Shown in pieces: positions 38,912 to 41,201 of a stretch of DNA of 41,586 bases; within the stretch, counting starts at the first letter, position 1; every line of letters starts with the position of its first letter. This stretch comes from a virus (Duplodnaviria; Caudoviricetes): positions 1 to 41,586 of IMG/VR virus record IMGVR_UViG_3300003086_000041. One strand, given 5' to 3'. Below the pieces are notes generated by a model that did not search any database, was not told the origin of the DNA, and saw nothing but the letters and a program-made list of their open reading frames with translations. Position numbers and translations under genes: made by a program.

Positions 38912-39772
38912 ATGGCATTAGATGGTGATTGGCAAGTAAAACATAATGGTACTTGGAGTAGTATTCAAGAAGCCTGGGTAAACAATAATGGTACCTGGGA
39001 AAGATTTATTAGAACACAGCCTGTAGATGGGGACTGGTCTGCTTGGTCAGGATATAGTACGTGTACTGCTTCATGTGGCGGTGGTACCTATTCAAGAACT
39101 AGAGTATGTAATAATCCTACCCCAGCATATGGAGGTGCGGATTGTTCCGGTTCTACCTCTGAAACTACTGCATGTAATACACAGAGTTGTTGTACAGCAG
39201 GCTCACAGACTTTTACATCGAGTGGTACGTTTAATATGCCTTCTGGCTGTACTTCTGCGTCTGTAACTGTGGTTGCTGCTGGCGGTGGTGGCGGTGGTGG
39301 AGAAGGTAATGGTGGCGGAGGTGGCGGTGGCGGCACTTGGTCCGGTTCTATTACAGGATCTGTATCCGTAACTGTAGGCTCTGGAGGCACGGGAGGGCTG
39401 GGAGACTGTAATTACGGAGGTAATTACAACGCTACAAATGGAGGAGCTTCATCCTTCGGATCCTATATTAGTAGGTCTGGCGGTACCGCCGGTACCAATA
39501 TATGTAGTGGATGTGGCGGAGGAACCGGAGGAGCTGGTGGAAGTGATTCCCCTTGTAACTACGGAAGCGGTTGTGGAAGTACAGGAGGCGGTTCATGGAA
39601 CGGTCAAGGAGCCGGAGGTCAGAGAGGTTGTAGAGGTAGTAATATAGGCAACGGTGACGGAGGGGGACTTATCGGAGGTTCTTATGGCGGCGGTGGTGGC
39701 GGAGGCGGCTGGTCTTACGGACGAGGTGGCAATGGTGCTAGTGGTGCAGTAATTATTTCTTGGAGCGCATAA
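38912..39772 (+). CDS. Gly-rich tip adhesin 1 with thrombospondin type-1 domain
   Basis: Trp-rich N-terminal peptide; VDGDWSAWSGYSTCTASCGGGTYSRTRVCNNPTPAYGGADCSGSTSETTACNTQSC; then SQTFTSSGTF...VVAAGGGGG...GGNGASGAVIISW Gly-rich domain. Confidence 0.85.
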   Translation: MALDGDWQVKHNGTWSSIQEAWVNNNGTWERFIRTQPVDGDWSAWSGYSTCTASCGGGTYSRTRVCNNPTPAYGGADCSGSTSETTACNTQSCCTAGSQTFTSSGTFNMPSGCTSASVTVVAAGGGGGGGEGNGGGGGGGGTWSGSITGSVSVTVGSGGTGGLGDCNYGGNYNATNGGASSFGSYISRSGGTAGTNICSGCGGGTGGAGGSDSPCNYGSGCGSTGGGSWNGQGAGGQRGCRGSNIGNGDGGGLIGGSYGGGGGGGGWSYGRGGNGASGAVIISWSA

Positions 39773-40062
39773 TGATATATTTTGAAATAGATAAAAATAC
39801 ACAAGAAGTATTGTCGGGTCCTTGGGGTTCTAACGAGTTACCAATTTTCTCTGAAGAGTCTAATATAGTAGCTACTGAGTCTCTATCTCTTAAGGTAGGA
39901 TGGTTTTATGTAGATGGGTTGCTAGAGAAACCTCTATCCCCTAATCCTTCCTGGATTTGGAGTGATTCTGAGGAGTCTTGGTCCTCGCCTATACCCTACC
40001 CGGAAGGTGAGCTAAACTATGACTGGAACGAAGAATTAACTAATTGGGTATTAGTACCTTAG
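39772..40062 (+). CDS. Small acidic Trp/Pro-rich partner of adhesin 1
   Basis: Likely start is the ATG at 39772 (TAATG overlap). C-terminal PNPSWIW....W.SPIPYP......WNEE...W matches the 41211 protein. Confidence 0.75.
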   Translation: MIYFEIDKNTQEVLSGPWGSNELPIFSEESNIVATESLSLKVGWFYVDGLLEKPLSPNPSWIWSDSEESWSSPIPYPEGELNYDWNEELTNWVLVP

Positions 40063-40139
40063 TAATGATAGAATTTAAATATACTGTTTCTTGAGTTGAT
40101 ACTGTATAGGATATAACGAATTAAGAAAGGAGGTATTCA

Positions 40140-41201
40140 ATGGCATTAGACGGCGATTGGCAAGTAAACCATAACGGTACTTGGAGTAGTATTCAAGAAG
40201 CCTGGGTTAACGAAAATGGTACTTGGAAAAGATTTATTAGAATAACCCCTATAGACGGTGGATACTCTGCATGGTCAGCATACGATGCTTGTACTGTAAA
40301 TTGTGGTGGAGGTACTCAAGGTCGTACTAGAACATGTACTAACCCTACTCCTGAACATGGCGGTGCAGATTGTGTAGGTACAGCTTCAGAGTCTCAAGCT
40401 TGTAATACTCACAGTTGTGCGGTATACGTATCGGCTACAGGAGGTGCAGTGACTACTTCGGGTAGCTATAGGTATCATACGTTTACAGGTACAGGTACCT
40501 TTAGTGTGACAACGGCGGGTAATGCAGCAGGGTCTAATACTCTTGAATATTTGGTTATTGCAGGCGGTGGTGGCTCAGGTCGAGGAGACAAGTCAGGGGG
40601 GCCAGGTGGTGCAGGAGGCTATAGAACTGCTTCTGCCACAGCATCAGCAACTGGGTACTCTGTTACAGTAGGTTCTGGAGGCTCGTACGGTTACTATAAT
40701 GGAATGAGTGGTGTTAATGGTGGTAATTCTACTTTTAACGGCTTAACCTCTACCGGTGGTGGCGGAGGCGGTGCCTCTCACACCGCAGGTAAGAGTGGTG
40801 GTTCTGGCGGCGGTGGTGGTGGTGGTACTAATACCGCTGCGGGTGGTACAGGAATCGCAGGACAAGGTCACAATGGTGGCTCAGGGCACAGTGCATGTTG
40901 TCTTCACCCTACCGGTGGTGGTGGTGGAGCGGGAAGCGCAGGACAAGCAGGTACTACTTCAAGAGTCGGTGGTTCGGGTCTAACATGGTTAGATGGAACG
41001 GTCCGAGCTAGTGGTGGTGCTGGTGCTAACGAAGGTGGATTTGGTTCTACTTCAGCCACTCCGGGTGGTGGTGGCTCAGGTGGTGATAGCGCATCTAACG
41101 GTATAGCAAATACCGGTGGTGGAGCTGGCGGTGTGGGACATCAGACAAATGGTAAAACAGGTGGCTCAGGTATCGTAATCATTAGATATCAGTATCAATA
41201 A
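40140..41201 (+). CDS. Gly-rich tip adhesin 2 with thrombospondin type-1 domain
   Basis: AAGGAGG RBS; same N-terminal peptide; [60 protein letters not shown]...YHTFT...EYLVIAGGG...[10 protein letters not shown] domain. Confidence 0.87.

What the first reader, a model, noticed from the sequence alone, without database searches (positions are those of the whole stretch)
39023..40418. Animal-type thrombospondin type-1 (TSP1) domains in two phage adhesins
Seen: 39023-39190 and 40251-40418 each encode a full six-Cys TSR: (V/I)DG.(W/Y)SAWS.Y..C...CGGGT..RTR.C.NPTP..GGADC.G...E...CNT.SC. Known: this matches the hemicentin/ADAMTS/properdin-type consensus (DGxWSxWSxWSxCSxTCGxGxxxRxRxCxNPxPxxGGxxCxG) of metazoan extracellular proteins, which bind sulphated glycans and cell-surface proteins. 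I know of no characterised phage virion protein with it. The two copies have diverged while keeping all Cys and the RxR ladder, and use phage-like codons, so they appear to be under selection. Inference: a eukaryote-derived module letting the phage stick to animal mucus, matrix or sulphated polysaccharide (e.g. a phage of an invertebrate-associated bacterium), or serving as a rigid disulphide stalk.
Basis: partly seen in the sequence, partly recalled or inferred. Interest (0 to 1): 0.88.

Follow-up and report, generated by a model that had tools for sequence, protein, structure and literature searches.

The report
Thrombospondin spacer in phage adhesins
Two predicted adhesin genes of a phage found in hydrothermal-vent metagenomes each carry a true thrombospondin type-1 repeat, a domain best known from animal extracellular proteins, which likely works as a rigid spacer between a predicted fibre-docking cap and an exchangeable, likely host-binding head rather than as glue for animal surfaces.

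Summary
Observation confirmed: both stretches encode complete six-cysteine TSP1 repeats (Pfam PF00090, E 1e-9 and 1e-11; 56% identical to human thrombospondin-1 TSR3; dN/dS 0.28; phage-like codons). Independent runs support the assembly. The window is a T5-like siphophage contig found mainly in hydrothermal-vent metagenomes. Each protein reads cap - TSP1 - glycine-rich head, followed by a small gene. Head and small protein fold most like cyanophage Pam3's fibre gp24 and its chaperone gp25. Population contigs swap heads right after the TSP1; relatives keep the cap without TSP1; podovirus-like phages carry TSP1 in the same slot. Best reading: a rigid disulphide spacer in a gp38/gp24-like adhesin cassette. 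The animal-donor and mucus-binding inferences are unsupported but not excluded. The closest non-phage copies are in Patescibacteria (75% versus at most 68% in animals), the domain also occurs in DPANN and predatory bacteria, the tree is unresolved, and the repeats are acidic. I found no match in 50,697 GenBank phage records and no paper describing this. This scan earlier noted TSP1-like repeats in another phage fibre and in CPR/DPANN proteins. New variant of a known kind; interest 0.55.

The parts
1..37176 (+). Context: T5-like siphophage structural operon (terminase, portal, protease-capsid, neck, tail tube, two tape-measure ORFs, lambda-like tail tip M/L/K/I/I/J, S74-chaperone fibre, further fibre genes)
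   Evidence: Pfam and PHROGs; nearest GenBank capsid proteins are Vibrio phages pVp-1/VPG01 at about 49%
37205..38902 (+). Collagen-repeat tail-fibre gene (565 aa) directly upstream of adhesin A
   Evidence: Pfam Collagen PF01391 E 4.5e-13; PHROG tail-fibre matches
38822..38899 (+). Fibre C-terminal tip motif T-x5-P-x-G-G-x-x-G-D plus hydrophobic end; predicted docking site for the adhesin cap
   Evidence: The same motif ends the gene upstream of the cap gene in 5 of 5 other viral loci examined; complex prediction weak support
38912..39772 (+). Adhesin A (286 aa): cap - TSP1 - glycine-rich head
38912..39022 (+). N-terminal cap A: three G-x-W repeats (G5/W7, G13/W15, G27/W29)
   Evidence: Alignment with caps of other phages; 88% DNA identity to cap B
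39023..39190 (+). TSP1 repeat A (six Cys; aromatic layer W42, W45, Y48; R62, R64)
   Evidence: PF00090 E 1.3e-9
39191..39769 (+). Head A: glycine-rich domain (39% Gly), exchangeable in the population
   Evidence: PF21722 E 5.9e-7; other heads follow the repeat at 39190/39195 in runs X15, X9
39772..40062 (+). Small partner gene A (96 aa; start overlaps A's stop), likely cognate chaperone of head A
   Evidence: phrog_7759 E 6.5e-5; the same partner type follows the same head type in L012
40140..41201 (+). Adhesin B (353 aa): cap - TSP1 - glycine-rich head
40140..40250 (+). N-terminal cap B
40251..40418 (+). TSP1 repeat B (six Cys; aromatic layer Y42, W45, Y48; R62, R64)
   Evidence: PF00090 E 1.2e-11; PDB sequence and fold matches
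40419..41198 (+). Head B: TNF-like beta-sandwich plus glycine-rich lattice, like Pam3 gp24
   Evidence: PF21722 E 2.4e-17; 7ypx_A Z 14.6, rmsd 3.3 A over 189 residues
41211..41586 (+). Small partner gene B (125 aa, runs off the contig end), likely tail-fibre chaperone
   Evidence: phrog_7759 E 4.7e-39; best fold match among 48,161 chains is Pam3 chaperone chain 7ypx_a, Z 5.2, rmsd 1.9 A over 53 residues

Best explanation
The two genes encode predicted fibre-tip adhesins in which a true thrombospondin type-1 repeat likely serves as a short, rigid, disulphide-locked spacer between a cap predicted to dock on the collagen fibre's tip and an exchangeable glycine-rich head that likely recognises the bacterial host. 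Steps: (1) shown: gene order fibre - [cap-TSP1-head] - partner - [cap-TSP1-head] - partner; (2) inferred: the cap's three G-x-W repeats dock one adhesin on the trimeric fibre tip, as T2/T6/S16 gp38 does on gp37, and because A and B share the cap a virion could display either; (3) inferred: the small downstream protein is a cognate chaperone that covers the head during assembly, as Pam3 gp25 does for gp24; (4) inferred: the three disulphides form after lysis in an oxidising setting and hold the head away from the fibre; (5) shown: heads are exchanged at the repeat's 3' end in natural populations; inferred: the conserved cap-plus-repeat DNA is the crossover handle. The repeat more likely came from a pool shared by phages and cell-attached prokaryotes than straight from an animal, but the donor is unresolved.
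For: Position: always between an anchor and a C-terminal head, one copy, behind at least five different N-terminal parts (this cap; the P0193 type; L012; L002/P0026/P0034; fibre or Ig-domain fusions L001, L010, P0017, P0196, P0200). Optional: the same cap family without a repeat in L129-L132 and L001:3810; Gly_rich_2 heads without a repeat in L012:110 and L131. Conserved while heads vary: P0007 has cap and repeat about 80% like A and B but a head only 22-27% like theirs and no Gly_rich_2 match; a contig of run X9 leaves the window at 39195 into the P0007 head, and one of X15 leaves at 39190 into a B-type head (frame from 111). Contig depth falls from 76/160/41 on the upstream genes to 9/34/8 on cassette A in X1/X5/X7, and head B has no cover in X5 (depth is no share of cells). 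Head fold: Pam3 gp24 Z 14.6, Bxb1 tail-tip chain Z 12.8, LTK/ALK Z about 8; Pam3's distal glycine-rich loops are the proposed receptor site (PMC9608196 section 3.2). Partner fold: Pam3 gp25 ranks first in both searches. Fibre-tip motif precedes the cap gene in 5 of 5 other loci. Complex of three fibre tips with cap-TSP1 scored 0.51, best control 0.02, runs agreeing in at least 88% of contacts, partner pLDDT at least 78: weak support only (the mark was reached by 116 of 157 solved and 2 of 215 mismatched pairs, but at 0.60 or under by only 18 of the 157 and by both mismatches). Disulphides occur in mature Pam3 virions (PMC9942802 passages).
Against: No virion, host or binding data exist; the phage is uncultured and the contig is a partial genome. 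Conservation of the repeat fits a binding role as well as a spacer role. The partner's fold match is middling (Z 5.2; Foldseek E 2.9) and a sequence profile found nothing in PDB. Glycine loops 216-272 and 302-323 of the B model have pLDDT under 50. Pam3 gp24 is a homotrimer with a helical N-terminus, so the 3:1 docking rests on the gp38 analogy, the gene pairing and a weak prediction. In the 144-row tree repeat B and P0195 fell in an unstarred group (88/87) with mollusc repeats, and no origin was rejected. Named animal repeats in my set are just as acidic (mean -2.4), so charge does not set the phage copies apart.
Confidence: 0.62

Rival explanations
1. The TSP1 repeat is itself a secondary binding module for a microbial surface (a polysaccharide or protein of the bacterial host or its biofilm), adding avidity while the head sets specificity.
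For: The Trp/Arg face is conserved and WxxW is a described glycosaminoglycan/protein-binding motif (PMC5446238 passages); dN/dS 0.28; prokaryotic carriers are mostly CPR, DPANN, Bdellovibrionota, Myxococcota and Rickettsiales, lineages that attach to other cells (lifestyle from general knowledge).
Against: The aromatic layer drifts (W,W,Y in A; Y,W,Y in B); one family (P0026/P0030/P0032/P0034, L002) has a repeat lengthened by insertions in all three strands and L001 has a loop insertion, which fits a length-adjustable stalk; the repeat is absent from related adhesins.
Confidence: 0.18
2. One reading: an animal-derived module that lets the phage stick to animal mucus, matrix or sulphated glycans, as for a phage of an invertebrate-associated bacterium.
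For: 56% identity to human TSP-1 TSR3; up to 68% to bivalve repeats; repeat B groups loosely with mollusc repeats in one tree; transfer of TSP1 from animals to apicomplexans is argued in PMC3417536 (passage); L010's repeat has the CSVTCG motif.
Against: Closer copies are prokaryotic (75%); the highest-likelihood tree found puts animals apart from phages plus prokaryotes, though not significantly; only two Arg, net -2/-3, whereas the solved Sema5A glycosaminoglycan site needs extra basic residues outside the ladder (PMC10978931 passages); neither A nor B has CSVTCG; 18 of 20 runs holding the DNA are labelled vent and 2 marine metagenome, none animal-associated; the repeat lies proximal to the head, not at the tip.
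Confidence: 0.1
3. The repeat is kept mainly as a conserved DNA/protein handle that lets heads recombine in frame; its structure is a tolerated linker with no special mechanical value.
For: Break points sit at the repeat's 3' end; exchange near conserved motifs is described for gp38 (PMC3157838 passages).
Against: Synonymous sites of the two repeats are far diverged (dS 1.06, 67% DNA identity) while the cap is 88-91% identical, so protein rather than DNA identity is what is held; all six Cys are invariant across phage copies.
Confidence: 0.1

Closest known systems
Cyanophage Pam3 tail fibre gp24 with chaperone gp25 (PDB 7YPX; PMC9608196)
   Same: TNF-like plus glycine-rich head (Z 14.6) followed by a small gene whose product folds like gp25's N-terminal domain (Z 5.2).
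   Different: gp24 is a homotrimer with a helical N-terminal bundle bound to the baseplate; here the N-terminus is a Trp-repeat cap plus a TSP1 repeat, behind a collagen fibre, in two tandem cassettes of a siphophage.
T2/T6/S16 gp38 adhesins (PMC3157838; PDB 6F45 as cited in PMC9608196)
   Same: Gene follows a fibre gene; N-terminal attachment part plus variable glycine-rich specificity part; exchange near conserved motifs.
   Different: gp38 uses three short helices and a beta-helix connector; 6F45 was not among the 50 rows listed; here the connector is TSP1 and a cognate chaperone gene follows.
Animal group-1 TSRs (thrombospondin-1 TSR2/3, properdin, UNC5, ADAMTS13, BAI1; Pfam PF00090)
   Same: Six Cys in register, aromatic/Arg ladder, same predicted fold.
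   Different: Single copy in a protein with an anchor cap instead of a signal peptide; Trp partly replaced by Tyr; acidic; made in a bacterial cytoplasm, so no C-mannosylation or O-fucosylation is expected (general knowledge).
TSP1 repeats of Patescibacteria, DPANN, Bdellovibrionota, Myxococcota and Rickettsiales proteins
   Same: Same subtype; highest non-phage identity (75% to a Magasanikbacteria repeat).
   Different: There often in tandem in secreted, membrane-anchored or pilin-like proteins; found in only about 1-2.5% of sampled CPR/DPANN genomes.
ALK/LTK TNF-like glycine-rich (TG/GRD) ectodomain
   Same: Head fold, Z 7-8; the likeness of phage heads to ALK is already noted in PMC9608196.
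   Different: Animal receptor kinase ligand-binding domain; middling Z, 16-20% identity.

Membership tests
TSP1 repeat (Pfam PF00090, group-1 TSR) | Profile match above the curated cut-off over the full length | tested here: met
   38.5 and 45.0 bits versus 21.6, positions 1-49/49
TSP1 repeat (Pfam PF00090, group-1 TSR) | Six Cys in register with thrombospondin-1 TSR3 | tested here: met
   Alignment of B; same positions in A
TSP1 repeat (Pfam PF00090, group-1 TSR) | WxxWxxW and RxR ladder | tested here: met
   R62/R64 in both; aromatic layer W,W,Y (A) and Y,W,Y (B), so met with Tyr substitutions
TSP1 repeat (Pfam PF00090, group-1 TSR) | Three-stranded TSR fold | tested here: met
   Predicted model of B: 1.5 A over 52 residues to BAI1 TSR3, TM 0.83-0.86 by target; a prediction, not a structure; A was not modelled alone
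TSP1 repeat (Pfam PF00090, group-1 TSR) | Disulphides actually formed | not testable with these tools
   Needs non-reducing mass spectrometry
Glycosaminoglycan-binding TSR | Basic residues outside the ladder, as in Sema5A TSR4 | tested here: not met
   Only R62 and R64, no Lys, net -2/-3 versus the K734/R747/R749 site; the alternative WxxW proposal is half met in A only
Animal-derived (horizontally acquired) TSR | Supported nesting inside animal sequences | tested here: inconclusive
   No starred set holds B; AU p 0.58, 0.36, 0.37 for animals, prokaryotes, phages each held together
Pam3 gp24-type glycine-rich fibre with TFA-like chaperone | TNF-like plus glycine-rich head | tested here: met
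   Z 14.6, 189 residues; PF21722
Pam3 gp24-type glycine-rich fibre with TFA-like chaperone | Downstream chaperone with gp25/TFA N-terminal fold | tested here: inconclusive
   Top hit but Z 5.2 and E 2.9; no sequence match
Pam3 gp24-type glycine-rich fibre with TFA-like chaperone | N-terminal helical trimerisation bundle | tested here: not met
   Model residues 1-93 are strands and loops
gp38-type fibre-tip adhesin | N-terminal domain docks on the tip of the upstream fibre | tested here: inconclusive
   Gene pairing in 5 of 5 other loci; complex prediction weak, 0.51 versus 0.02
gp38-type fibre-tip adhesin | Three-helix attachment domain and beta-helix connector | tested here: not met
   No such Pfam match; model has a strand cap and TSP1 instead
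gp38-type fibre-tip adhesin | Present in the virion and sets host range | not testable with these tools
   Uncultured phage

The most novel reading that the evidence does not exclude
The canonical TSP1 repeat is an old prokaryote-and-phage surface module, not an animal invention: marine phages use it as a universal socket on which host-recognition heads are exchanged, it circulates among phages and cell-attached CPR, DPANN and predatory bacteria, and animals drew their thrombospondin repeat (like the ALK/LTK glycine-rich fold of the head beside it) from this pool.
Probability: 0.12. Interest if true: 0.85.

Novelty: new variant of a known kind. Interest (0 to 1): 0.55.

Why it matters
TSP1 is treated as an animal adhesion domain that parasites borrowed. 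A canonical copy as a recurring, optional part of adhesins in unrelated marine phages, and in host-attached bacteria and archaea, reopens where the domain arose and which way it moved. It also gives a small, testable design for phage host-range variation: one fibre tip, a shared cap and spacer, several head-plus-chaperone cassettes that vary within one population. The cassette type itself (glycine-rich adhesin with chaperone) is known, and no function of the repeat has been shown, which caps the score.

Tried and rejected
Chimeric assembly: rejected. Recent foreign insertion: rejected by codon use. tblastn of repeat B against 50,697 GenBank phage records: no match at E 0.01; whole protein A matched only the cap of Prochlorococcus phage P-HM1 at E 0.3. 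No PHROG describes the repeat; phrog_2295 aligns to B from residue 62 but to A only from 97, and I did not check its members. Single-sequence scan of viral contigs found nothing; the alignment scan found 8 loci of 127 candidates, 2 of them bacteriophages (L001, L002), 3 named as giant-virus MAGs and 3 not classified; a repeat scan with A6 gave only 3 cap loci already held. The search of cluster representatives was swamped by multi-repeat proteins (17,198 hits) and served only as a source of mostly eukaryote-like repeats. Phylogeny of 56 columns does not resolve the donor. Net charge does not separate phage from animal repeats. Partner protein: no Pfam or PDB sequence match. Literature: searches found no paper on TSP1 in phages or prokaryotes among the listings shown; the hits I opened were a reference title, type-3 repeats or animal-to-apicomplexan transfer; the RBPseg fibre atlas has no occurrence of 'thrombospondin' in its main text. 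One search was meant as a Gammaproteobacteria control but its genomes overlap those, so it is a second Patescibacteria sample. The wide VIA search of the adhesin model and the ESM Atlas search were not obtained. Host not identified.
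Full report
Observation. The window is one 41,586-base virus contig with all long ORFs on the + strand. Pfam and PHROGs identify terminase, portal, fused protease-capsid, neck, tail tube, tape measure and lambda-like tail-tip genes of T5 type; the closest GenBank capsid proteins are from Vibrio phages such as pVp-1 at about 49%. 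After several fibre genes comes a collagen-repeat fibre (37205-38902), then ORF A (38912-39772), a 96-aa gene, ORF B (40140-41201) and a 125-aa gene cut by the contig end. Both match PF00090 over the whole profile (E 1.3e-9, 1.2e-11). B aligns to human thrombospondin-1 TSR3 with all six Cys in register (domain E 3e-19; 32 of 57 identical by my count), and its AlphaFold model superposes on BAI1 TSR3 at 1.5 A over 52 residues. The copies are 64% identical, dN/dS is 0.28, and codon use is that of the phage.

Assembly and habitat. Twenty runs from 13 studies hold the region, 12 with half or more of its words; 18 are labelled hydrothermal vent metagenome and 2 marine metagenome. I laid 8 of the 20. 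One X2 contig bridges fibre end, cap and the start of repeat A without a difference; X1 contigs cover 38950-40150 and 40178-41429 without a difference, and X5 and X7 cover cassette A with 4 and 10 differences. X1 and X2 may be the source study. No single contig spans the whole stretch; they break in repeated parts such as the cap.

Anatomy. Each protein has three parts. The 37-residue cap has three G-x-W repeats. A scan of viral contigs with the cap gave 4 loci from 66 candidates; in all 4, and in L001, the gene upstream ends in the same T-x5-P-x-G-G-x-x-G-D motif as the window's collagen fibre, and none of these 5 cap proteins shows a TSP1 repeat behind the cap (Pfam run on 2 of them). A prediction of three fibre tips with cap-plus-repeat scored 0.51 against a best control of 0.02, runs agreeing in at least 88% of contacts, partner pLDDT at least 78. 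This is weak support: the mark was reached by 116 of 157 solved and 2 of 215 mismatched pairs, but at 0.60 or under by only 18 of the 157 and by both mismatches, and the job differs from the calibration. The head matches PF21722 and folds like cyanophage Pam3 fibre gp24 (Z 14.6, 3.3 A, 189 residues), a Bxb1 tail-tip chain (Z 12.8) and LTK/ALK (Z about 8); its glycine loops are poorly modelled. In Pam3 the distal glycine-rich loops are the proposed receptor site and are covered by chaperone gp25, which is absent from virions (PMC9608196, passages and section 3.2). The model of partner B (pLDDT 83) has gp25 as its best match in Foldseek (E 2.9) and among 48,161 chains (Z 5.2, 1.9 A over 53): middling alone, but it is the cognate chaperone of the best head match. 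Partner type follows head type: L012's head is 65% like head A and is followed by an A-type partner.

The repeat is constant while heads vary. P0007 shares cap and repeat (about 80%) but has a head 22-27% like A and B and without a Gly_rich_2 match. A contig of run X9 follows the window to 39195 and then reads, in frame, into the P0007 head; a contig of the same length stops at the same place in X7, as does one in X11; X15 has a loose end at 39190 that reads like the start of a B-type head, and a joint from partner A back to another cap (translated by eye in the frame). Contig depth drops from 76, 160 and 41 upstream to 9, 34 and 8 on cassette A in X1, X5 and X7, and X5 has no cover of head B; the tool warns that depth is no share of cells, so I take this only as consistent with a variable island. 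Exchange at conserved motifs is described for gp38 (PMC3157838, passages).

Other phages. TSP1 sits in the same slot in L001 and L002, which carry a different major capsid family (phrog_1328, with portal and scaffold in L001; podovirus-like by my reading), and in L010 and L012, short contigs of fibre and partner genes without a capsid gene. In L002 and L012 it again follows a collagen fibre. P0010, P0017, P0193, P0195, P0196, P0200, P0026, P0030, P0032 and P0034 have the same design but no genomic context; I classed them as phage-type by architecture. No GenBank phage record of 50,697 matched the repeat. So the design is recurrent but rare, and seen here only in uncultured sequence.

Origin. 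A scan of GTDB genomes gave 39 loci from 299 candidates: by record title 11 CPR, 9 Nanoarchaeota/Woesearchaeota, 3 Bdellovibrionota, 2 Myxococcota, 2 Rickettsiales and 12 others, all MAGs. Leaving out the seed genome, PF00090 was found at E 0.001 or better in 4 of 200, 4 of 200 and 5 of 200 genomes of two Patescibacteria samples and one DPANN sample (over the cut-off 2, 3 and 4; order), in 1 of 400 genomes of the phylum of an alphaproteobacterial MAG (partial match; at most 16 candidates scored per genome) and in 0 of 14 controls. Of 2,312 full-length repeats gathered, the best non-phage match is a Magasanikbacteria repeat (75% to A, 70% to B); the best of 70 named animal repeats reach 62.5% and 68%, and of 1,855 repeats from the representative search 64% and 68%. 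Both sets were picked for likeness to the query. Of the 80 metagenome loci kept from 292, most looked eukaryotic by eye; that output was cut in the middle. The 144-row tree (at most two repeats per source) is largely open; repeat B falls in an unstarred group with mollusc repeats. On 52 rows (7 divergent prokaryotic loci, P0032 and all unlabelled or self-labelled rows left out) no grouping was rejected (AU p 0.58, 0.36, 0.37), and the best tree found held animals apart from phages plus prokaryotes. The donor is unresolved; a direct animal donor is not shown.

Binding. The repeats hold only the two ladder arginines, no lysine, net -2 and -3. The solved Sema5A glycosaminoglycan site needs basic residues outside the ladder (PMC10978931, passages). 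The WxxW and CSVTCG motifs cited for glycan and CD36 binding (PMC5446238, passages) are incomplete: W,W,Y in A, Y,W,Y in B, and no CSVTCG. Against over-reading this, the named animal repeats are equally acidic. Disulphides in virions have precedent in Pam3 (PMC9942802, passages).

Literature and earlier notes. Ten searches showed no paper on TSP1 in phage or prokaryotic proteins; the library lacks most subscription papers and I opened no supplements. PMC3417536 (passage) lists TSP1 among apicomplexan domains otherwise animal or closest to animal versions. PMC7824862, PMC3542563, PMC12143355 and bioRxiv 2023.11.21.568195 (passages) do not describe it. The Bxb1 paper was not read. Earlier notes of this scan report TSP1-like repeats in another phage's fibre and TSRs in CPR/DPANN proteins; no look-alike of protein B was on file.

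Verdict. Real and correctly placed. Most likely a rigid disulphide spacer in a known kind of adhesin-chaperone cassette (0.62); microbial secondary binding 0.18; animal-surface binding 0.10; mere recombination handle 0.10. New variant of a known kind, interest 0.55.

Noticed in passing
window 24565-30303: The central tail fibre J (1912 aa) has 26 Cys, far more than the other structural genes, with at least five short C...C...W modules (starting at 26407, 27028, 27517, 27709, 29470): a second, unnamed disulphide mini-module in the tail.
   Followed up: partly
window 10117-17004 and 17075-21487: The tape-measure region is two long ORFs (2295 and 1470 aa) 70 bases apart; the second has three copies of a PHROG-matched tape-measure motif.
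   Followed up: no
window 23370-23975 and 23972-24565: Two tandem lambda gpI-like tail assembly genes (both phrog_32).
   Followed up: no
window 30321-38902: A long run of fibre-like genes (S74-chaperone fibre, Ala/Thr-rich coiled fibres, collagen fibre); a relative, L133, keeps the same order with a fibre 71% identical.
   Followed up: partly
L002:5702-6502; P0026, P0030, P0032, P0034: A lengthened TSP1 variant with insertions in all three strands (an extra aromatic repeat, an extra RxR run and an extra third-strand segment), apparently an extended ladder.
   Followed up: no
L003-L008: TSP1 repeats in large viral contigs, three named as giant-virus MAGs; L003 has a 2040-aa protein with several repeats.
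   Followed up: no
P0014, P0022 (L105), P0006, P0024: TSP1 repeats fused behind pilin-like N-termini in prokaryotic proteins; P0014 has a precomputed PF07963 match.
   Followed up: no
window 38822-39022; L129-L132, L001:3684-3944: The fibre-tip motif and the triple G-x-W cap form a recurring gene pair across unrelated phages; neither part matched Pfam or a solved structure by sequence.
   Followed up: partly
L128 (Pelagibacter phage HTVC025P) 3385-5378: A glycine-rich gene followed by the same phrog_7759-type partner occurs in cultured pelagiphages and cyanophages, annotated as hypothetical; these could test the chaperone reading.
   Followed up: partly
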